From IMG/VR virus record IMGVR_UViG_3300021255_003058, positions 1 to 64,000 of that record: a DNA stretch of 64,000 bases. One strand, given 5' to 3'. Source of the stretch: a virus. Lineage: Duplodnaviria; Caudoviricetes. A model generated the notes under the pieces. The model worked only from the letters and a program-made list of their open reading frames with translations, was not told where the DNA came from and made no database searches. Both the position numbers and the translations under genes were made by a program. Each line of letters starts with the position of its first letter. The stretch's first letter is position 1. Positions 4,851 to 56,439 of this stretch are shown here, one piece after another.

Positions 4851-4884
4851 AACAAGAGGAGTTACTTAAGTAACTCCTCTTGTT
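4851..4884. terminator. Perfect 34-bp palindrome at convergent gene ends
   Basis: aacaagaggagttactt/aagtaactcctcttgtt. Confidence 0.6.
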
Positions 4885-6445: not shown

Positions 6446-6556
6446 AATTATTTAATTTTTATTTATTATTGAAAATTTGCAATTTTCAAATTGCAATAAT
6501 ATTTAATGGTTTGCCTCCACCAAAAGGAGTTTTGCTTAGGAACTTTAACCAAATCG

Positions 6557-6627
6557 TAGTCCCAGTAGGACTCGAACCCACCTCAGCTGGTTTAGAAGCA
6601 GCGGCACAACCTCTGTACCATGGGACC
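6557..6627 (-). tRNA. tRNA-Sup(CUA), amber suppressor
   Basis: Cloverleaf; anticodon arm GCTGC-TTCTAAA-CCAGC, loop centre CTA; same C31.C39 mismatch as tRNA-Thr at 8304. Confidence 0.75.
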
Positions 6628-7360: not shown

Positions 7361-7431
7361 TTGGGTCAGGCAGATTCGAACTGCCACTACAAGGACCAAA
7401 ATCTTGTGTACTGCCATTATACGATGGCCCA
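7361..7431 (-). tRNA. tRNA-Gln(TTG)
   Basis: Cloverleaf, loop TTTTGGT. Confidence 0.9.
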
Positions 7432-7438
7432 ATAAATA

Positions 7439-7548
7439 AAACAAACCTGTAACATTCTTATAAAGAAATAAAAATGTAATCGTAATAAAATAAAAATCAA
7501 ACAAACAATAAAATATGAAGTATCTCTATAATACAACAAGGTTTGTTT
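7439..7548 (-). ncRNA. Bipartite intron-like element, permuted order, U-rich cargo
   Basis: AAACAAACCT-TGTTGTA-TTATAGAGA-TACTTC...TCTTTATAA-GAATGTTAC-AGGTTTGTTT. Confidence 0.7.
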
Positions 7549-7682
7549 TTTGCTGTTTTTAACATTCCTTGTGTATATTCACTTATTTAAGTTATAATAC
7601 AACAAGGTTTGTTTTTGTTGTTTTTAACATTCCTTGTGTATATTCACTTATTTAAGTTATAATACAACAAGGTTTGTTTTTG
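7527..7682. repeat. Tandem repeat, 65-66 bp unit, about 2.4 copies
   Basis: tataatacaacaaggtttgtttt at 7527, 7593 and 7658 with near-identical intervening sequence. Confidence 0.85.
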
Positions 7683-7806
7683 TTTGACGTACAGTTACCA
7701 AAATATGGGTTAAGATTACTTACTGTAATCACCATGCAGATATTGGATTACTTACCAATGTCCAGTACTTAACTTTATAATCTCATATTTGACACTTTGT
7801 TACGTG

Positions 7807-7879
7807 TGGAGCCACCGGGCTTCGAACCCGGGATCTCTGCGTGCAAGGCAGAAGTGTTAGCCAACTATACCATGACCCC
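7807..7879 (-). tRNA. tRNA-Ala(TGC)
   Basis: Cloverleaf, loop CTTGCAC. Confidence 0.9.
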
Positions 7880-7936
7880 AAATGGTAATTTTTTATATCA
7901 CTAAATTTATCAAGAGAACTACCAAACTCATTGATT

Positions 7937-8075
7937 ATATCAAGGAACGTTCGACAAAAGTTCATAGAGTTGGATTCGAACCAACGACCTCCAGTTTTCA
8001 AGGCTGGTGTTCTACCACTGAACTACCCTTTCAAATTATTGGGAAAGAAGTAACTCTTATCTACACCATTGACAT
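7937..8075 (-). tRNA. Circularly permuted tRNA (anticodon TGA) flanked by split intron-like element
   Basis: Order: element 3' half, (C)TTTCCCA, spacer, GAAAGGG..D..anticodon..T arm, element 5' half. Confidence 0.7.
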
Positions 8076-8078
8076 TTG

Positions 8079-8149
8079 TTGCGTAGGGAGAAGTCGAACC
8101 CCCAGCACAAGGTTATGAGCCTTATATGTTACCCTTACACCACCACGCG
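8079..8149 (-). tRNA. tRNA-Met(CAT), C1:A72 initiator-like
   Basis: Cloverleaf, loop CTCATAA. Confidence 0.85.
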
Positions 8150-8303
8150 ATATTTACTACTCTGTATATAAACAAAAAAATCAATTTTAAATAATTGGAC
8201 AGATTTTACTGTTACTGTCATCACCTACACCTACGATTAGGAAACTCGTTTGAATTATTTCAGGGACGGAATACATTACGTTGAGGCGCGACCTCTTTTG
8301 ATG

Positions 8304-8375
8304 AGGCGCTACTGAGAATCGAACTCAGATTATCGGGTTACAAAGCCGAGGTAATAACCATTATACTAAAGCGCC
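8304..8375 (-). tRNA. tRNA-Thr(TGT)
   Basis: Cloverleaf, loop TTTGTAA. Confidence 0.85.
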
Positions 8376-8385
8376 ATTTCTTTAA

Positions 8386-8468
8386 AATTTCATGTAACTA
8401 ACAAAGAAAGTATTATATAATATAAACCTTAACATATTGATGTAACTCTCTTTTACAACAATGAAATT
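8386..8468 (-). ncRNA. Bipartite intron-like element, permuted order, short cargo
   Basis: AATTTCAT-TGTTGTA-AAAGAGAGT-TACATC...ACTTTCTTT-GTTAGTTAC-ATGAAATT. Confidence 0.75.
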
Positions 8469-8470
8469 AG

Positions 8471-8554
8471 TTGCGGGGGTTGGAATCGAACCAACACAAG
8501 CATTTTCTGTCTCAAGGTTATGAGCCTTGCATCTTACCATTAGACTACCCCACG
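8471..8554 (-). tRNA. tRNA-Met(CAT), C1:A72, long variable region
   Basis: Cloverleaf, loop CTCATAA, 17-nt variable region. Confidence 0.8.
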
Positions 8555-8626
8555 ATTTTTTAAAAATTTATTCCTTTTGTTTAATAATAATTAAACCAAT
8601 TTAGTTTTTATCATTTAATTTATGTG

Positions 8627-8700
8627 TAGGGTGTGATGGACTTGAACCACCGACCTTGAAGGTATAAGCTTCCTGCGCTAACCTACTGCGCCAACACCCC
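8627..8700 (-). tRNA. tRNA-Ile(TAT)
   Basis: Cloverleaf, loop CTTATAC. Confidence 0.85.
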
Positions 8701-8759
8701 ATATTATAATCATTATAAATAAATATAGTTTTCTAAAAAAATCAATTCAAAAATATATG

Positions 8760-8924
8760 TTGCCACTGCAGGACTCGAACCTGCGACCCCGAGCTTATCA
8801 GGCTGAAGTAACTCTTATCTTCAACAATAATATCATTCATATGTTTACATATTATAATTAATAATATTACGTAACTATCGACAAAGTAAACGTTACGTGC
8901 TCTATCCAACTGAGCTAAATGGCA
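8760..8924 (-). tRNA. tRNA-Ile(GAT) with 91-nt intron (8805-8895) in anticodon stem
   Basis: Removing the insert restores the stem CG|AGC/GCTCG and a full cloverleaf. Confidence 0.85.
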
Positions 8925-8930
8925 ATTTTG

Positions 8931-9150
8931 TAGCGGCCATGGGAGTCGAACCCATTATTTGTAGGTGCTATATCCCTACCGTGATCGTTTCCTAAACAAG
9001 TAACTTAGTTCCTCACTTTATCCCGGGCTTGCTTAACATTTAACCTTGTTTATTTCTTGATGCTGTTAAATACTCATATCAAAATTATAAGTTTTAACAT
9101 AGTCCGTCGACCACATCAACTTAGAAACATTTCCGTTTCACTCGGACACT
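8931..9150 (-). tRNA. tRNA-like gene with about 145-nt D-loop insertion and 9-nt anticodon loop
   Basis: GTGA/TCAC D stem, GTAGG/CCTAC stem, canonical T arm. Confidence 0.5.
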
Positions 9151-9161
9151 GAAGTTAATTG

Positions 9162-9296
9162 CGGGGACGATTGGAGTCGAACCAATTTTTGATTATTTGA
9201 CAGATAATTGCATTGAAGTAACTCACACTCTACACTATCATTATATTAATGAAGAAAAACGAATGAAGTTTTATACTACCGTTTTGCTACATCCCC
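9162..9296 (-). tRNA. tRNA-Asp(GTC) with about 63-nt intron (9215-9277) in D loop
   Basis: Cloverleaf restored after removing insert ending GAGTTACTTC. Confidence 0.8.
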
Positions 9297-9303
9297 ATAA
9301 TTG

Positions 9304-9439
9304 CTGGAGGGGTTGGATTCGAACCAACACTCTTTTGTTTATCAGACAAATACATTAACCTTTGAAGTAACTCACATTCTACACTACCTTCTGGAGAACC
9401 ACAAACGAAGTTTTAAATCTTTTTTTATGTTACCCTCCA
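9304..9439 (-). tRNA. tRNA-Ile(GAT) with about 63-nt intron (9364-9426) in D loop
   Basis: Cloverleaf restored after removing insert ending GAGTTACTTC. Confidence 0.8.
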
Positions 9440-9445
9440 ATAATG

Positions 9446-9518
9446 CGCGCCCTGAAGGAGTCGAACCCTCATCTACTGGGTTTGGAGTCCAGTGCCTTAA
9501 CCATTAGACCAAAGACGC
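9446..9518 (-). tRNA. tRNA-Trp(CCA)
   Basis: Cloverleaf, loop CTCCAAA. Confidence 0.9.
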
Positions 9519-9546
9519 ATTATAGTTTATTTTATTCAAACAATTG

Positions 9547-9625
9547 TACAGCGGGTGGGACTCGAACCCACATACACCAATTACGTGGTTAATGTCAGTG
9601 TATAAGACTGCGACGATACCGCTGT
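9547..9625 (-). tRNA. D-armless tRNA-like gene, anticodon TAT, long variable region
   Basis: Perfect acceptor ACAGCGG/CCGCTGT and T arm; only about 8 nt where the D arm should be. Confidence 0.65.
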
Positions 9626-9629
9626 AAAT

Positions 9630-9822
9630 AATATTTTAACTCACCTAAGTATTTTGTGATATGGTCCACTCAACTTATCCTTTGGCCTCGGATCCTAAGT
9701 AATTGCAACTCCTTAGGGTACTGTACCACCTACACAAGATCATTTCTTACTTTCACCATAACATGTAGATGTAACTCTACTACTTATAAGTATATGTCTT
9801 GTTCCGATCTGGTTAAAATATT
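9630..9822 (-). ncRNA. Putative structured ncRNA
   Basis: Closed by AATATTTTAAC/GTTAAAATATT; internal hairpins. Confidence 0.4.
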
Positions 9823-9979: not shown

Positions 9980-10591
9980 TTATGTATTTAAAAATTCTTT
10001 TATTTGATTAATCAAATTTTCTTTATCATTATTTGACATTTTTTTATATTCAGACCAACGTATTCTAATTCCTTCCCAACCTTTTGTTTTTAAATATTCT
10101 GTTCTTTCAATATCATGTTTAATCATATAATCTGAATAATGTTGTTCACCATCAATTTCTACATATTTCATTAAATTTTCATTATAAAAATCTAATTCAT
10201 ATCTATCAATTTGTTTATGATATTGTAATGGAATATTTTCTTTAACAAACAATTCTTCAAAATATTTTTCTGGATAACTTTGTTTAGAAGAATGATTAAT
10301 TATAAATCCAACTTTATTTGGATGCTCGTTTAAATATTTTTTTCTTGAATTTGATATTTTATTTTTTACTTCATCAGTATGATGTTTTCCTTTAAATGTT
10401 TCTCCGCATTTTTTTCTTGTTTCATCAGAAACAATAATTTCTCTACCTTCTTCTTTAGCTTTTGTAAATTGATTACTATTTTTTGAACGTAATAAATATA
10501 CTGGAGTTAATTTATTAGGATTTTTTGAACATCTCATTTCATGTTGAATTAAATGTTTACATTCCTTTCCACAATATTTACAATTAAACAT
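9980..10591 (-). CDS. Free-standing homing endonuclease-like protein (Zn finger, NUMOD3, DUF559/Vsr-like nuclease)
   Basis: CKYCGKEC, KGKHHTDEVKNKIS, YELDF..VEIDGEQH; start moved to MFNCKYC. Confidence 0.75.
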   Translation of the reverse strand: MFNCKYCGKECKHLIQHEMRCSKNPNKLTPVYLLRSKNSNQFTKAKEEGREIIVSDETRKKCGETFKGKHHTDEVKNKISNSRKKYLNEHPNKVGFIINHSSKQSYPEKYFEELFVKENIPLQYHKQIDRYELDFYNENLMKYVEIDGEQHYSDYMIKHDIERTEYLKTKGWEGIRIRWSEYKKMSNNDKENLINQIKEFLNT

Positions 10592-10609
10592 ATATTCAAA
10601 ATATTTTTG

Positions 10610-10680
10610 TGACCCCACTGGGAATCGGACCCAGGTCACGTGATTAAAAGTCACGGGCTTTACCACTAAGCTATGAGGTC
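10610..10680 (-). tRNA. tRNA-Lys(TTT)
   Basis: Cloverleaf, loop CTTTTAA. Confidence 0.9.
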
Positions 10681-16865: not shown

Positions 16866-18002
16866 TTATTTCAATTGGTCTTCAATTTCCTTAATCATTT
16901 TATTTACCTTTTCAAGATATTCTTTTGCATCACGTATTGATTCATCAGATGAAGATCTATCGAAACTTCCCCAGTTTTCAGGATTTTCTTTACCTCTTTC
17001 TTTTGCGCGTTGAACTGATTTTTCTGCTGAATGTTTATAATTCATTGATTTATAGAATTGTTCATATGCATAAGAAACATATCTCATTAAATCTGATAAA
17101 TCAAAACGCATATCCATATTTTCAGGTTTTGACATTACCTTTTGGAATAAAGCAACAACATCATCATTTGTTTTCTTTATTTCATCAAACAAAACATTTG
17201 GATCATCTTGAAGTTTCTTTGCTTTGATTTCTTTTACCATTACTTTATATCTTGCTTGTTGTTGTCTAAGAAGATTATCCATGCTATCTTTGTCCATTTC
17301 TATTGAACCTTTTTGAGATTCTTCGCGTTCTTTATGTAATTGATCATAATCTTTAATCATTGATTCTGTTATTTCAAGAACATAAACATCAAAATCTTTA
17401 ATTAATTCTAATGTTTCATTAACTTTTAAAGGACGAACATCATATTTATATTTCTTTGCAGTTTTCTCTTGGACTCCTTGTTTCCAACCTTCTGACTCAA
17501 AATAATATACTCTAACATCTCCTAAAGTTTTTGCATATCCTTTAATAAATGCAACAATATCTTTAGTACCTGGAGTACAAACAATCATATCAGCAATAGT
17601 TTTCTTTGCATAAACTGATTTTAAGAACTTTACAAATTCTTTATCGTCACCTTTATATTGTTTGAAATCACTATCTTTAATTTCTGACCATTTCAAACCA
17701 CGAATACCACTTTTCTTGTCACCCCATCTTGGAGTTTCTGTTAATGGACCAAAAATAGATGCAAAAGTTTTTGCTGTCTTTGTTGGCTTATAACCGCGAC
17801 CTCCTTCTTTGTATCTTTGCTCTTGTTTCTTGTCGTTTTCAGCATGTTCCTTTTCAGCATCTTTAATTGCTTTTGCAAGATTTGTTAATAATGATGATTG
17901 AAAACTCTCATTAATTGTTTCATCAATAATTAAATTACATGTTTCAATTAATATTTCATTATTACATAAACCGTCTGATACGAATTCAAATAAATTTTTC
18001 AT
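16866..18002 (-). CDS. hypothetical protein
   Basis: 378-aa ORF. Confidence 0.8.
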   Translation of the reverse strand: MKNLFEFVSDGLCNNEILIETCNLIIDETINESFQSSLLTNLAKAIKDAEKEHAENDKKQEQRYKEGGRGYKPTKTAKTFASIFGPLTETPRWGDKKSGIRGLKWSEIKDSDFKQYKGDDKEFVKFLKSVYAKKTIADMIVCTPGTKDIVAFIKGYAKTLGDVRVYYFESEGWKQGVQEKTAKKYKYDVRPLKVNETLELIKDFDVYVLEITESMIKDYDQLHKEREESQKGSIEMDKDSMDNLLRQQQARYKVMVKEIKAKKLQDDPNVLFDEIKKTNDDVVALFQKVMSKPENMDMRFDLSDLMRYVSYAYEQFYKSMNYKHSAEKSVQRAKERGKENPENWGSFDRSSSDESIRDAKEYLEKVNKMIKEIEDQLK

Positions 18003-19231: not shown

Positions 19232-20143
19232 TTATTTTTCATATAATACTTCCCAAAATTTATTTCCATATTTATTAATAACATATTCAAATACTTCAGT
19301 TAAATCTTCTTTAAATAAAACTTTAATATCTGGATTTTGCTCAGATTTTATTTGAGCAACTTTATCATAATATCCTTTTATTTCAATTATTTCATTATCA
19401 TTAATAATAAAATCTGGAAAATATTTACAAACTTTTTTATTTAATTTATAATATCTTATTTCATCGCACCTTTTAATTTTTATATTATGTTCTAAACAAT
19501 ATACCAAATAAGCTAATTCCCATGAACTATCACAATGAATACCTTTATAGTTTCCATGATGATGATTTTTAATAGAATTTGGATGATAACCACCAAAATT
19601 ATTTTTCTTTGCGTTATCGCTTAACTTAGTATGTTTACCAATTTTTAAGCATTCATTTGAACAATATTTTAATTTCTTATTATAATATTTTTTACCACAA
19701 ATAGGACATATATTATAAGGCGTCCAATCTGGATTTACTGTCCATCGATTATTAATATTTAAATTATTAATTCTTTTCTTACCCTTTATCCATGATGATT
19801 TACCCTTTAAAGAATCAGCTATTTTCTTATTCTTTTCTTCTAAATTTGTATGTAATGATGATAACTTATGAGCACATGAAGAACAACACGTTTTTCTATA
19901 ATCACCTGCATTAAATTGTTTTTGTCTTATTTGTAATGTATATTCTTTACCACAAGCTAAACATATTAATTTATACTCTTTTAGAGGATTATTTTTTTCA
20001 AATTTTTCTTTTTTTCGTAAAGAAAAATCTTTTTGATATGAATTAGGATTTTTACTACAATGTATAATATGAGCCCCTAATGATTGACCAGAGTTAAATT
20101 CTTTATTACAAAATTTACAAATATGTTTTTTATTATCTTCCAT
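19232..20143 (-). CDS. Free-standing homing endonuclease-like protein (Zn fingers, PD-(D/E)XK nuclease)
   Basis: CxxC motifs; DSSWELAY..YFPDF..IEIKG. Confidence 0.75.
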   Translation of the reverse strand: MEDNKKHICKFCNKEFNSGQSLGAHIIHCSKNPNSYQKDFSLRKKEKFEKNNPLKEYKLICLACGKEYTLQIRQKQFNAGDYRKTCCSSCAHKLSSLHTNLEEKNKKIADSLKGKSSWIKGKKRINNLNINNRWTVNPDWTPYNICPICGKKYYNKKLKYCSNECLKIGKHTKLSDNAKKNNFGGYHPNSIKNHHHGNYKGIHCDSSWELAYLVYCLEHNIKIKRCDEIRYYKLNKKVCKYFPDFIINDNEIIEIKGYYDKVAQIKSEQNPDIKVLFKEDLTEVFEYVINKYGNKFWEVLYEK

Positions 20144-20297: not shown

Positions 20298-20417
20298 AAA
20301 TTCGGTTTTCCTTAGATCCGAAAACTTAGTACCGTGTCTCGCCTCTGTACCCTCGCCTTAGCATACTTCCATTATATTATATAGTACGTAATTCAAATAT
20401 AATGTCTAAGGATTTTG

Positions 20418-20551
20418 TAGGGGAGGTTGGACTCGAACCAACATAATCTTTAACCAAAATAAAGTGTGTAAACCTGAAGTAACTCTAATCTACAGCATTC
20501 ATTAAGAAGCAACAGCGAATAAAGTCAATAAATTAATTTCACCACTCCCCT
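20418..20551 (-). tRNA. tRNA-Gln(TTG) with about 61-nt intron (20476-20536) in D loop
   Basis: Cloverleaf restored after removing insert ending GAGTTACTTC. Confidence 0.8.
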
Positions 20552-20634: not shown

Positions 20635-20777
20635 AATTCCTGTAACATGCTTGAAAAGTGTTTTTATGGACTCGAACCATCACCTCGGGCTTTGCAGGCC
20701 CGCGCTCTAACCACTTAAGCTAAAAATCCAAAGTTTCTGGTGGATTAAGAAGTAACTCTTCAATTCAACAAGGAATT
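20635..20777 (-). tRNA. Circularly permuted tRNA-Cys(GCA) flanked by split intron-like element
   Basis: Acceptor 3' strand with CCA (TTAATCC-A-CCA, 20738-20748) lies upstream of the body GGATTTT..T arm (20666-20729). Confidence 0.8.
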
Positions 20778-21324: not shown

Positions 21325-21403
21325 ATTCATGTAACATTCGAGAAAAGTAAATTTGGAATAATCTTGGCAAGATTTGAAGTATCTCTTCTCTACAACAATG
21401 AAT
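21325..21403 (-). ncRNA. Bipartite intron-like element, permuted order, short hairpin cargo
   Basis: ATTCAT-TGTTGTA-GAGAAGAGA-TACTTC...ACTTTTCTC-GAATGTTAC-ATGAAT. Confidence 0.75.
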
Positions 21404-22202: not shown

Positions 22203-22280
22203 AATTCCTGTAATAAGCGAATAAAGTATTTTATTAAGATCCAAATTCTTTGAAGTAACTCTATTCTTCAACAAGGAATT
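22203..22280 (-). ncRNA. Bipartite intron-like element, permuted order, short cargo
   Basis: AATTCCT-TGTTGAA-GAATAGAGT-TACTTC...ACTTTATTC-GCTTATTAC-AGGAATT. Confidence 0.75.
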
Positions 22281-22428: not shown

Positions 22429-23370
22429 TTATAAACTTGTATTATTATAATAAATTAAAAACTTATTAATCTTTTCTTCCATTAATTGTTTACCATGTTC
22501 TGAATTAATTTCATTCCATGGTATTCTATAAACTTCTATTCCTTTAGATTTTATGAATTCATCTCTGATTTTATCAGATTCTTTTCGCTCTTTATATAAA
22601 TGTTGTTTACCATCTATCTCTAAATCAATCTTTCTATCATTTATTTCAATATAAAAATCTAAAAAATATCTTTCACCACTTCCTTTGTTACCATATTCTA
22701 ATACATATTCACGTACATATTGAATATTGTTATTATCTAAAACTTGTTTCCAAAATTTTTCTGCATAACTTATAATATTACGAGATTTCCAACCTTGAAA
22801 TGTTCCATTTTGAATTTCTTTTTTTCTTTGTAATGAAGATTGTTTTGATATTGATTTTTGTCTACATTCATCAGAACAATATTTTTGAAATTTATTACTT
22901 TCAAATTCTTTATTACAATATTTACATATACATTTTCGAACACCATAAACATATTCTCCATATTGGTTAGCTAATTTATATTTATGTTGTTTAATACCTT
23001 TTAAAAATGTATTAGATATTTTTCTTTTTGTTTCTTCTGTTCGTTTACCTTTTTTCTTATTTCCTAATGCTGAACCACAAGATTGATTACAACATTTTGC
23101 AAATCTTTTTTTAAATGGTAATTTCTTTCCACAATATTCACAATATTTAGGATTTAAATCATAATCTCGTTTTTGAATTTCTAGCCAATGATTAGATAAA
23201 TTCTTTTTAGAAATTTGTTCTTTAGATTCAATTCCTATTTGTGAAAAATACATAAGAATATCTTTATCTATGTATCCTCCATTTTGATTAGTGCGAATAT
23301 TTAGTTTTTTACAAATTTCTGATTTTGACTTAGAATAATCATAAATATTTTGAATTTCTTCTTTAGTCAT
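22429..23370 (-). CDS. Free-standing homing endonuclease-like protein (Zn fingers, DUF559/Vsr-like nuclease)
   Basis: CxxC motifs; YFLDF..LEIDGKQH..RIPW. Confidence 0.75.
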   Translation of the reverse strand: MTKEEIQNIYDYSKSKSEICKKLNIRTNQNGGYIDKDILMYFSQIGIESKEQISKKNLSNHWLEIQKRDYDLNPKYCEYCGKKLPFKKRFAKCCNQSCGSALGNKKKGKRTEETKRKISNTFLKGIKQHKYKLANQYGEYVYGVRKCICKYCNKEFESNKFQKYCSDECRQKSISKQSSLQRKKEIQNGTFQGWKSRNIISYAEKFWKQVLDNNNIQYVREYVLEYGNKGSGERYFLDFYIEINDRKIDLEIDGKQHLYKERKESDKIRDEFIKSKGIEVYRIPWNEINSEHGKQLMEEKINKFLIYYNNTSL

Positions 23371-24028: not shown

Positions 24029-24066
24029 AAATTATAACCATTATAAAATGATTAAATTTTATTATA

Positions 24067-24202
24067 ATTATCGGAACAGCTATAAAAGTATTATTATGAA
24101 ACTTTCTCTCGGATTCGAACCGAGGAATCAATTCTGGAAAAATTGCATTAAACCACTTAATTAAAAAAGTAATCGAAGTAACTCTTATATACACCAGATA
24201 AT
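24067..24202 (-). tRNA. tRNA-Gly(TCC) (24100-24170) wholly enclosed by permuted intron-like element
   Basis: ATTATC-TGGTGTA-TATAAGAGT-TACTTC, tRNA, ACTTTTATA-GCTGTTCC-GATAAT. Confidence 0.75.
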
Positions 24203-25063
24203 TTATATCTTATTATTTTTCTTTATGTAAGGTTTATATATATTAAAAAAATCAATATAATATTTTTTTAATGCTCTAAATATACATTTATCAAATAATT
24301 CATTTTTTTCTTTTAAATAATTTATTAATTTTTTTGACCAACCAAATTTTGAAAAATCTATATTTGATTCTTTACATGCAGATTCTAAAATTTGTTTCTT
24401 TTTATTATTATCTTTTTCTTTTTTAATTTTTCTATTAATTTTATCAGTATACTGTTGATCTTTATATTTAGAAAAATCTTCATATAGTATTCTCCAAAAT
24501 TCTTTGCCATATTTATTTATAACATATTCTAAATAAGGTTTTATTAAAATTTCATCAATAACTTTAATATTTGGAAATTGTTTTTCCTTTTCTAAAGATT
24601 TTTTACTTTTTCGCCCTTTAATTTCAATTAAACCTTCATCTGTTATAAAATCAGGAATATAAATATGTTCTTCATTATTCCATATATATTTGAATTTTTT
24701 ATTACATCTTTCAATATATAAATTATGTTCAATATAATAAACTAAAAATGCTAATTCCCAAGTACTATCACAATGAATATTATTATACCAACCTTGTTTA
24801 CTATTACCATGTTTTTTATTAAACTTCCAATTAGTATTACCTTTCATTGATTTTGAAATTTTAATTCTTCTTTCAATTTCCTTTTGTGGATCTTTACATT
24901 TTCCACATGATATACCTTGTCTAGATTTTTTTATATGTTTTTTATATTCATCATTAATTCCATATACCCACCCTTCATTTAGGTATTTGTTAATATCATT
25001 AGGATTAACATAAATACATATATTATTTTTATTCATCCATTTATATCCTTTGCTAGTACTCAT
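24203..25063 (-). CDS. Free-standing homing endonuclease-like protein (PD-(D/E)XK)
   Basis: DSTWELAF..YIPDF..IEIKG; paralogous to 19232-20143. Confidence 0.75.
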   Translation of the reverse strand: MSTSKGYKWMNKNNICIYVNPNDINKYLNEGWVYGINDEYKKHIKKSRQGISCGKCKDPQKEIERRIKISKSMKGNTNWKFNKKHGNSKQGWYNNIHCDSTWELAFLVYYIEHNLYIERCNKKFKYIWNNEEHIYIPDFITDEGLIEIKGRKSKKSLEKEKQFPNIKVIDEILIKPYLEYVINKYGKEFWRILYEDFSKYKDQQYTDKINRKIKKEKDNNKKKQILESACKESNIDFSKFGWSKKLINYLKEKNELFDKCIFRALKKYYIDFFNIYKPYIKKNNKI

Positions 25064-56298: not shown

Positions 56299-56439
56299 AA
56301 AAATTATGCTAATTTTTTAAAATTGCATTATTAGAAAAATTATGCTAATTTTTTAAAATTGCATTATTAGAAAAATTATGCTAATTTTTTAAAATTGCAT
56401 TATTAGAAAAATTATGCTAATTTTTTAAAATTGCATTAT
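56299..56439. repeat. 36-bp tandem repeat, about 4 copies
   Basis: aaaaattatgctaattttttaaaattgcattattag head-to-tail with no spacers. Confidence 0.9.

What the first reader, a model, noticed from the sequence alone, without database searches (positions are those of the whole stretch)
9162..9439. Adjacent tRNA-Asp and tRNA-Ile with about 63-nt D-loop introns
Two neighbouring tRNAs carry closely similar inserts (ACTTC..TTCT..TAGTGTA-GA.TGTGAGTTACTTC) on opposite sides of the D-loop GG. The same subtype at different positions in different tRNAs suggests the element moves independently of exon context (inference).
Basis: partly seen in the sequence, partly recalled or inferred. Interest (0 to 1): 0.75.

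Follow-up and report, generated by a model that had tools for sequence, protein, structure and literature searches.

The report
Ro60-handle hairpins inside phage tRNA genes
The two "D-loop introns" are real inserts, but they belong to a widespread structured RNA module that sits next to Ro60 (TROVE) genes in phages and soil bacteria. They are most likely protein-docking handles on tRNA look-alikes (Y-RNA-like RNAs), not spliced introns.

Summary
Observation confirmed. tRNA-Ile(GAT)-like (9439..9304, minus strand) and tRNA-Asp(GTC)-like (9296..9162) each carry a ~62-nt insert in the D-loop. The Ile insert lies before the GG and the Asp insert after it. They share a 23-nt block that differs at one base.

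The insert is one of 12 copies in this tRNA array of a covarying stem/bulge/stem module. The same module occurs in dozens of IMG/VR phage contigs, in cultured Bacteroides phage crAss001, and in Terriglobia (Acidobacteriota) contigs. It appears in three forms: inside tRNA bodies, flanking rearranged tRNA-like cargo, and as a bare hairpin.

Three results argue against an intron and for a Y-RNA-type Ro60 handle:
- Clusters of modules lie within about 1 kb of Ro60/TROVE genes in five separate lineages.
- All 6 near-complete module-bearing phage genomes encode TROVE.
- One strand carries a close variant of the published Ro60-binding motif, and Rfam YrlA weakly hits the cargo.

No bulge-helix-bulge motif, no fixed splice-site geometry and no EndA endonuclease were found. 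Splicing is not excluded, because no RNA data could be obtained, and this 44%-complete genome shows no TROVE gene.

Other follow-ups in this scan reached a similar Ro60 reading for a different handle on other DNA.

The parts
9304..9439 (-). tRNA-Ile(GAT)-like gene that carries the insert in its D-loop, 5' of the GG
   Evidence: Cloverleaf read from the sequence. ARAGORN calls tRNA-Ile(gat) after in-silico removal of the insert. Rfam tRNA scores 36.5 bits on the 3' part.
9364..9425 (-). Insert in the Ile-like gene. Module core is 9411-9364: ACUU+N5 strand, internal loop, 2 bp, hairpin, bulged U, UGUA loop, N5'(U)GAGU strand, UACUUC tail. A-rich linker is 9425-9412.
   Evidence: RNAalifold and pair counts on 17 copies.
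9162..9296 (-). tRNA-Asp(GTC)-like gene that carries the insert in its D-loop, 3' of the GG
   Evidence: ARAGORN calls tRNA-Asp(gtc) after in-silico removal of the insert.
9215..9276 (-). Insert in the Asp-like gene. Module core is 9269-9215, with a short linker 5' of it.
8759..8924 (-). tRNA-Ile(GAT)-like gene with a ~91-nt copy of the module between anticodon-stem positions 28 and 29 (module about 8895-8805)
   Evidence: Orthologous 28/29 inserts occur in Lys(UUU)-like genes of L003, L053, L063, L077 and L040.
20411..20549 (-). tRNA-Gln(TTG)-like gene with a D-loop copy of the module (core 20525-20476). It is homologous to a D-loop-insert tRNA look-alike downstream of the TROVE gene in phage crAss001.
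25230..25397 (-). Module in flanking form: the 5' strand (with GAGU-UACUUC) lies upstream and the ACUU strand downstream of ~110 nt of rearranged tRNA-like cargo
   Evidence: P1 8/9 pairs, 8-bp outer stem.
24066..24203 (-). Module flanking tRNA-Gly(TCC) (24170-24100)
22203..22280 (-). Cargo-less module (hairpin form) between two tRNA-Glu genes
21325..21403 (-). Cargo-less module between tRNA-Gln and tRNA-Ile
20635..20777 (-). Module flanking a tRNA-Cys(GCA)-like cargo. The acceptor 3' strand plus ACCA lies upstream of the body.
8386..8468 (-). Cargo-less module upstream of tRNA-Thr
7937..8075 (-). Module flanking a class-I body with anticodon UGA. The acceptor 3' strand lies upstream, and there is no long variable arm.
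   Evidence: In orthologues (L052, L060, L069) the upstream acceptor piece covaries with the 5' strand and is followed by N-CCA.
7441..7546 (-). Cargo-less module upstream of tRNA-Gln

Best explanation
The inserts are copies of a Y-RNA-type stem/bulge/stem module that serves as a docking handle for a Ro60 (Rsr/TROVE) ring protein. Here the handle is grafted onto tRNA scaffolds.

Anatomy, shown by covariation: a variable outer helix; one bulged U; 2 covarying base pairs; an asymmetric internal loop (4 nt [C/U]G[A/U]A on one strand, 6-7 nt R-N3-4-UU on the other); a 9-bp helix (ACUU+N5 pairing with N5'+GAGU); then a conserved UACUUC tail.

Inferred working:
- The RNA is transcribed with the tRNA operon.
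- Its tRNA part folds like a tRNA, and tRNA enzymes trim its ends.
- The hairpin stays in the RNA, projecting from the D-loop corner, and binds a phage or host Ro60.
- The tRNA-like body acts as the effector end, as in YrlA Y RNAs, which tether Ro60 to PNPase and other partners.

On this reading the Ile and Asp genes are tRNA-mimicking Y-like RNAs derived from duplicated tRNA genes. They would not be decoding tRNAs that need splicing.

The structure, the family and the gene neighbourhood are shown. Ro60 binding, retention of the insert and the downstream function are inferred.
For: 1. Structure. RNAalifold on 17 insert-type copies gives 14 pairs, 8 with compensatory changes. 98.7% of cells are paired versus 78% in shuffles and 32-47% when partners are slid; covariation is 0.60 versus 0.21, with 0 of 500 shuffles as high. 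The same two strands pair in all three arrangements in 54 distinct copies.

2. Gene neighbourhood. TROVE plus Ro60-type vWA proteins are encoded in 8 of 13 module-bearing virus records searched. That includes all 6 that are 98-100% complete. Clusters of 2-7 modules lie within about 1 kb of that gene in crAss001-like phages, in three 244-255 kb phages and in two Terriglobia contigs.

3. Cultured phage. In crAss001 the unannotated 905-nt gap after TROVE gp96 holds two bare modules, one tRNA look-alike with an anticodon-stem insert, and one with a D-loop insert. The window's Ile insert region hits the equivalent spot of phage cr112_1 by blastn, about 1 kb past its TROVE gene (E 1e-5).

4. Motif. 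The strand reads G[G/U][C/U]G[A/U]AG, and GGCGAAG in some Terriglobia copies. The published Rsr-binding motif is GNCGAAN0-1G, also called the 'CGAA motif' (PMC4201824, PMC12135203).

5. Rfam YrlA hits the cargo of Terriglobia units at 36.7, 31.5 and 25.8 bits.

6. Cargo does not look like decoding tRNA. Asp(GTC), Ile(GAT) and Gln(TTG) each have 2-3 intact copies in the array. The 'Ser(UGA)' and 'Tyr(GUA)' bodies lack long variable arms. Orthologues swap anticodons GAT/GTT and GTC/GTA on near-identical bodies. crAss001-like copies have 9-nt or aberrant 'anticodon' loops.

7. Bare modules and variable linker lengths need no special explanation if nothing is excised.
Against: - No TROVE gene is present in the 116 kb held for this phage, which is 44% complete. 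None is present in relative G008 either, at 83% complete. A host Ro60 would then be needed; Bacteroides thetaiotaomicron has one (control).
- The two D-loop copies read AGUGUAG, which departs from GNCGAAG at three positions.
- YrlA scores stay below Rfam's cut-off of 69 bits, and the YrlA model does not align to the handle itself.
- Many cargo bodies keep canonical 7-nt anticodon loops and perfect stems once the insert is removed.
- Some rearranged copies encode N73-CCA. That looks like selection for a genuine tRNA end. However, M. smegmatis YrlA is also cut by RNase P and receives CCA (PMC4201824).
- A huge phage with the module encodes RtcB.
- No RNA or binding data exist.
Confidence: 0.62

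Rival explanations
1. The module is a true, protein- or ribozyme-processed tRNA intron, and in the flanking form a permuted intron-exon cassette. It would be cut at both ends, and the exons would be joined by RtcB or another RNA ligase to give functional (or circular, then re-opened) tRNAs. Ro60 would be incidental, or a chaperone for this step.
For: - Removing the element restores a cloverleaf in 33 of 34 insert-type copies.
- In L005, L014, L022, L033, L056 and L069 a tRNA is found only when the segment between the two strands is circularised.
- The upstream acceptor pieces covary with their partners and carry N-CCA.
- RtcB is encoded by the 376-kb phage G002.
- Lak megaphages were reported to have unexplained tRNA introns (PMC6784885).
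Against: - There is no fixed cut-site geometry and no bulge-helix-bulge motif.
- No EndA was found in G000, G001 or G002.
- crAss001-like phages have neither EndA nor RtcB.
- No Rfam ribozyme or intron family matches.
- Cargo-less copies have nothing to splice.
- Rearranged tRNA-like order with a closing stem is exactly the known YrlA architecture (PMC4201824).
- Ro60 adjacency is unexplained by this model.
Confidence: 0.17
2. The module is a processing signal for the polycistronic tRNA transcript, a structured site for a host RNase such as RNase III, E or P. Copies inside tRNA genes would then simply inactivate them, leaving pseudogenes.
For: Bare copies fill whole spacers between tRNAs. Their outer stems abut the 3' end of one tRNA and the 5' end of the next. 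Phage RNase III sites are irregular hairpins with internal loops (general knowledge).
Against: - Copies inside tRNA bodies are conserved with their hosts across phages, with compensatory changes in both the module and the tRNA stems.
- Terriglobia arrays next to TROVE hold no ordinary tRNAs that would need separating.
- Strong sequence conservation of the loop and tail is not typical of RNase III sites.
Confidence: 0.08
3. The conserved 23-30-nt block is a DNA-level signal (phage promoter) or the end of a small mobile DNA element scattered through the array.
For: It is strand-specific, often lies just upstream of tRNA genes, and is about the length of a T7-type promoter.
Against: - It always has a complementary partner strand 25-120 nt away.
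- G-U pairs and compensatory changes show selection at the RNA level.
- No target-site duplications are present.
- The block also lies inside tRNA D-loops, where a promoter would split the gene.
Confidence: 0.04

Closest known systems
YrlA-type bacterial and phage Y RNAs bound by Ro60/Rsr (Rfam RF02553; Chen et al. 2014, PMC4201824; Thermus phage phiLo Yrl1/2, PMC12135203)
   Same: They are encoded beside a TROVE gene. They have a stem/bulge/stem with a CGAA-like motif on the 5' strand. Their tRNA-like domain has T arm, D arm and acceptor, often in rearranged order. They can be an RNase P/CCA substrate.
   Different: The handle sequence is distinct: ACUU/GAGU helix, UACUUC tail, and mostly UGAA/UGUA in place of CGAA. 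It scores below Rfam's threshold. In YrlA the handle replaces the anticodon arm. Here it is also inserted as a closed hairpin into the D-loop or anticodon stem of complete cloverleaves that keep an anticodon loop. It also occurs in up to 12 copies inside a tRNA operon far from any TROVE gene.
Archaeal and eukaryal bulge-helix-bulge tRNA introns, split and permuted tRNA genes (EndA + RtcB; PMC4090602, PMC3978253)
   Same: Inserts occur at non-canonical positions including the D-loop. The same element appears in intron-like and permuted arrangements. Similar inserts occur at different sites.
   Different: There is no BHB motif and no EndA gene, and the hosts are bacterial. The conserved part is the distal helix and loop, not the junction. 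The element also occurs without exons and next to Ro60 genes.
'Enigmatic' tRNA introns of Lak megaphages (Devoto et al. 2019, PMC6784885)
   Same: These are unexplained inserts in tRNA genes of huge gut phages, conserved between cohorts.
   Different: The sequences were not compared here. Lak introns were called at anticodon-loop positions by tRNAscan in eukaryotic mode, and one seems to encode a tRNA. A relationship is untested.
tRNA-associated HDV-like theta ribozymes of gut phages (PMC10879173)
   Same: They are small structured RNAs placed directly beside phage tRNAs.
   Different: Theta ribozymes are double-pseudoknotted and lie 3' of the tRNA. No HDV-like model matches here.

Membership tests
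Y RNA / YrlA-like Ro60 partner RNAs | Gene lies next to a Ro60/TROVE gene | tested here: inconclusive
   Met for the family: modules lie within about 1 kb of TROVE in crAss001-like phages, G005, G006, G010 and two Terriglobia contigs. Not met for this window: no TROVE gene is present in the 116 kb held, at 44% completeness.
Y RNA / YrlA-like Ro60 partner RNAs | Bulged stem carrying the Ro60-binding motif (GNCGAAN0-1G / CGAA) | tested here: inconclusive
   The architecture matches: outer stem, 1-nt bulge, 2 bp, 4/6-7-nt loop, upper stem. The family motif is G[GU][CU]G[AU]AG, and GGCGAAG in some Terriglobia copies. The Ile and Asp inserts read AGUGUAG.
Y RNA / YrlA-like Ro60 partner RNAs | tRNA-like domain (T arm, D arm, acceptor) | tested here: met
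   The YrlA model aligns to the T arm, closed acceptor and D arm of Terriglobia units.
Y RNA / YrlA-like Ro60 partner RNAs | Scores above Rfam RF02553 gathering threshold (69 bits) | tested here: not met
   Best scores are 36.7 bits in L099 and 22.2 bits in the window at 8983-8865.
Y RNA / YrlA-like Ro60 partner RNAs | Physically bound by Ro60 | not testable with these tools
   Needs RIP/EMSA.
BHB-type (archaeal/eukaryal) tRNA introns | Two 3-nt bulges separated by a 4-bp helix at the exon-intron junctions | tested here: not met
   Junction folds show only short, register-variable pairings. Linker lengths are 4-15 and 4-14 nt.
BHB-type (archaeal/eukaryal) tRNA introns | EndA/Sen splicing endonuclease available | tested here: not met
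   PF01974 is absent from G000, G001 and G002. The control rings only in archaea.
Group I / other self-splicing or self-cleaving RNAs | Match to a curated ribozyme/intron covariance model | tested here: not met
   No Rfam family other than tRNA passes threshold in the window. A permissive scan of 7400-9800 gives no ribozyme or intron hit. The core is only 48-55 nt.

The most novel reading that the evidence does not exclude
The module is both a Ro60 handle and a removable element. Ro60 bound to the hairpin would hold the two tRNA halves together, while a nuclease and RtcB excise it. In the flanking form they would circularise and re-open the cargo. That would be a protein-guided tRNA splicing and permutation system in bacteria and phages, unrelated to the archaeal BHB/EndA pathway. 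A milder variant: the handle is retained on chargeable tRNAs and tethers Ro60/PNPase to tRNA-binding host factors such as anticodon nucleases.
Probability: 0.15. Interest if true: 0.9.

Novelty: new variant of a known kind. Interest (0 to 1): 0.58.

Why it matters
If correct, several things follow.
- It explains a set of puzzling 'introns', 'split' and 'permuted' tRNA genes in huge gut and rumen phages as Y-RNA-like molecules.
- It adds a new, easily searchable handle to the Y RNA family.
- It shows that Ro60 handles can be grafted into the D-loop or anticodon stem of full tRNA scaffolds.
- It predicts unannotated Ro60 partner RNAs in crAss001, a cultured model of the most abundant human gut phage family, where the TROVE gene is an early gene (PMC8375218). 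It also predicts tandem arrays of ten or more such RNAs in Terriglobia.
- Practically, it warns annotators not to call these inserts introns. It also offers a tractable system, crAss001 with Bacteroides intestinalis, for testing what phage Ro60 particles do.

Tried and rejected
- Promoter reading of the GAGTTACTTC block: dropped once every copy proved to have a covarying partner strand.
- BHB motif, a fixed ruler from the core, and RNase P/Z 'minihelix' excision: none gives consistent exon ends.
- RNase III-type site: kept only as a weak rival.
- Hammerhead, hairpin, twister or HDV-like core: no model match. The A/U variation in the loop is incompatible with a hammerhead core.
- Intron-less orthologues: none found among 544 tRNAs of the fetched loci.
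- Paralogue alignments were too divergent to fix the junctions.
- Cellular-genome scan: most of the 124 pattern hits are chance. For example, Sulfurovum hits lie in a protein-coding frame I read as a tRNA-synthetase gene (not run against Pfam). Only the Terriglobia hits and one phage-like Clostridia contig are real modules.
- Array-embedded ORFs: four are homing-endonuclease-like and one (16866-18002) has no family match. None is a candidate RNA enzyme.
- RtcB presence was judged uninformative, because RNA ligases are common in jumbo phages (PMC7824862).
- No paper describing permuted tRNAs in phages or Y RNAs of crAss001 was found in the held library.

Full report
**What is there.**
The window is the first 64 kb of a 116-kb IMG/VR virus record, estimated 44% complete. 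G+C is 15-37%. A minus-strand array of more than 54 tRNA genes runs from 6.5 to 26.3 kb.

At 9439..9304 and 9296..9162 lie two cloverleaves that ARAGORN does not call as they stand. Reading the minus strand gives the following:
- An Ile(GAT)-like gene has 71 nt between its D-stem strands.
- An Asp(GTC)-like gene has a similarly inflated D-loop.
- The surplus is about 62 nt in each. It lies 5' of the D-loop GG in Ile and 3' of it in Asp.

After in-silico removal, ARAGORN calls tRNA-Ile(gat) and tRNA-Asp(gtc). The inserts align along their length. They share a 23-nt block that differs at one base and is found nowhere else in the window, against 0 expected.

**The insert is one member of a family.**
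The last 10 nt of the block, preceded by a TG-W-AGA context, recur on the minus strand at 11 further sites of the array. Each copy has a partner, ACUU+N5, that pairs with N5'+GAGU.

Across this genome and 82 IMG/VR loci fetched with a 16-base pattern, 105 of 291 sites with the 10-nt block (up to one mismatch) have a perfect 9-bp partner within 450 nt. More than 14 different N5 pairs are seen. Parsing 54 distinct copies gives one architecture:
- a variable outer helix;
- a bulged U;
- 2 bp that covary as AC-GU, CC-GG, CU-AG or UC-GA;
- an internal loop, UGWA on one strand and R-N3-4-UU on the other;
- the 9-bp helix;
- a UACUUC tail.

RNAalifold recovers this structure independently on 17 copies: 14 pairs, 8 with compensatory changes. 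Pair counts give 98.7% of cells paired against 78% in shuffles and 32-47% when partners are slid. Covariation is 0.60 against 0.21. No Rfam family matches.

**Three arrangements.**
1. The ACUU strand comes first and the element sits inside a tRNA body. In 33 of 34 such cases a tRNA appears when the element is removed. Break points are in the D-loop or at positions 28-43. The window holds four: the two of the finding, Ile 8924..8759 (position 28/29) and Gln(TTG)-like 20549..20411 (D-loop).
2. The GAGU strand is upstream and the ACUU strand is 86-121 nt downstream, enclosing a tRNA or a rearranged tRNA-like cargo. In six loci a tRNA is found only after circularising the enclosed segment.
3. The two strands are separated by a loose 21-42-nt loop with no cargo.

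The window has 12 modules in all.

**Why I first took the intron reading seriously, and why I dropped it.**
Restoration of cloverleaves, rearranged genes, and upstream acceptor pieces that covary and carry N-CCA all look like archaeal or red-algal BHB systems. Several results do not fit:
- The conserved part of the module is far from the junctions.
- The linkers between the core and the inferred exon edges vary from 4 to 15 nt (5' side) and 4 to 14 nt (3' side). Their pairing is short and shifts in register, and no BHB can be drawn.
- EndA is absent.
- The bare copies have nothing to splice.

A note from another follow-up in this scan described a different 'handle' that travels with a Ro60-shaped protein, so I tested that idea here.

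**The Ro60 connection.**
TROVE (PF05731) matches were found in 8 of the 13 module-bearing virus records searched. That includes all six that are 98-100% complete (G001, G002, G006, G010, G013, G014). The proteins have TROVE plus Ro60-type vWA domains, and their closest solved relative is a phage TROVE protein.

More telling is position. Two to seven modules lie within about 1 kb of the TROVE gene in the ~100-kb phages, in G005, G006 and G010, and in two Terriglobia (Acidobacteriota) contigs. In one of those contigs, ten or more units in tandem precede two TROVE genes.

The ~100-kb phages turn out to be Bacteroides phage crAss001 and its relatives. In crAss001 the unannotated 905-nt gap after TROVE gp96 holds four things:
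- two bare modules;
- a tRNA look-alike with the module in its anticodon stem;
- a second look-alike with the module in its D-loop, homologous to the Gln-like gene of this window.

The window's Ile insert region itself hits the equivalent spot of crAss-like phage cr112_1, about 1 kb past its TROVE gene.

Three further points agree with a Y RNA reading:
- Rfam's YrlA model hits the cargo of Terriglobia units at 26-37 bits, below its cut-off. It aligns to the T arm, closed acceptor and D arm.
- The module strand that comes first in the flanking form reads G[G/U][C/U]G[A/U]AG, and GGCGAAG in some copies. The motif proposed for Rsr binding is GNCGAAN0-1G (PMC4201824; 'CGAA motif', PMC12135203).
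- Rearranged tRNA-like order closed by a protein-binding stem is the published YrlA design. M. smegmatis YrlA is even cut by RNase P and receives CCA (PMC4201824), which accounts for the encoded CCA.

**Do the cargo bodies look like working tRNAs?**
Mostly not.
- Asp(GTC), Ile(GAT) and Gln(TTG) have two or three intact copies each in the same array.
- The UGA and GUA bodies lack the long variable arm that bacterial Ser and Tyr tRNAs carry.
- The orthologues of the Ile-like gene in two related contigs read GTT on a ~97% identical body. The Asp-like partner reads GTA in one relative.
- crAss001-type copies have 9-nt or otherwise aberrant 'anticodon' loops.

The stems stay paired throughout, so the tRNA shape is what is conserved.

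**Mobility.**
The module is clearly context-independent over evolutionary time. However, the adjacent Ile/Asp pair, with inserts at the same two D-loop sites, is shared with L071 and L078. The likeness of the two inserts may reflect common descent or gene conversion between neighbours. The GAGU strand of the Ile copy also pairs 9/9 with the ACUU strand of the Asp copy.

**Verdict.**
The best-supported reading (about 0.6) is that these are tRNA-scaffolded, Y-RNA-like Ro60 handles that stay in the RNA. A true splicing system is not excluded (about 0.15-0.2). Canonical anticodon loops in many copies, the absence of TROVE in the part of this genome we hold, and the lack of any RNA data keep it open.

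This is a new variant of a known kind, not a new class of intron. It can be tested directly in crAss001.

Noticed in passing
L099:250-2520 (Terriglobia MAG contig, 'Candidatus Angelobacter'); also L091, L095, L113, L125, L130, L146, L156, L161, L162, L167: Tandem arrays of up to ten or more module-flanked units lie directly upstream of one or two TROVE genes in Acidobacteriota. Some units hold YrlA-like tRNA mimics and others hold non-tRNA cargo. This is many more Y-like genes per locus than described for Salmonella or Deinococcus.
   Followed up: partly
L220:2416-3320 (= MH675552 95,965-96,869, Bacteroides phage crAss001): The unannotated gap after TROVE gp96 contains four module-bearing small RNA genes. 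In two of them the 'invariant' ACUU/GAGU helix is changed compensatorily, to AGUC/GACU and AAUC/GAUU.
   Followed up: partly
window 9625-9547 (-): An odd tRNA-like gene (Rfam tRNA 30.3 bits) has a good acceptor and T arm and a UAU-type anticodon hairpin. It has no recognisable D-arm and an extra hairpin in the variable region.
   Followed up: no
window 9116-8925 (-): A degenerate unit lies between the Asp-like and the next Ile-like gene. It has a T arm plus acceptor 3' strand (8955-8930) with no clear 5' partner, and a decayed copy of the module strand (AAGTTACTTG, about 9000-8991). Rfam YrlA gives a weak hit at 8983-8865 (22.2 bits), spanning this T arm and the D arm of the following gene.
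   Followed up: partly
window 6556-6627 (-): There is a tRNA with anticodon CTA (amber suppressor type) at the end of the array. Long ORFs are nevertheless open under code 11 in the window.
   Followed up: no
window 9980-10666, 19232-20143, 22429-23370, 24203-25063 (-): Four free-standing homing-endonuclease-like ORFs (NUMOD3, DUF559/Vsr-like, C2H2 finger) are interspersed in the tRNA array. ORF 16866-18002 (378 aa) has no family match.
   Followed up: partly
window 56318-56437 (+): Four copies of TAAAATTGCATT are spaced exactly 36 nt apart, a short tandem repeat seen while scanning for motifs.
   Followed up: no
window 4859-4876: A perfect palindrome (GAGTTACTTAAGTAACTC within a longer inverted repeat) resembles the module's tail by chance. 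It is probably a bidirectional terminator between convergent genes.
   Followed up: no
window 9373-9364 with 9269-9261 (-): The GAGU strand of the Ile insert is also fully complementary (9/9) to the ACUU strand of the Asp insert 104 nt downstream. An alternative 'flanking' fold that encloses Ile-3' plus Asp-5' is therefore possible.
   Followed up: no
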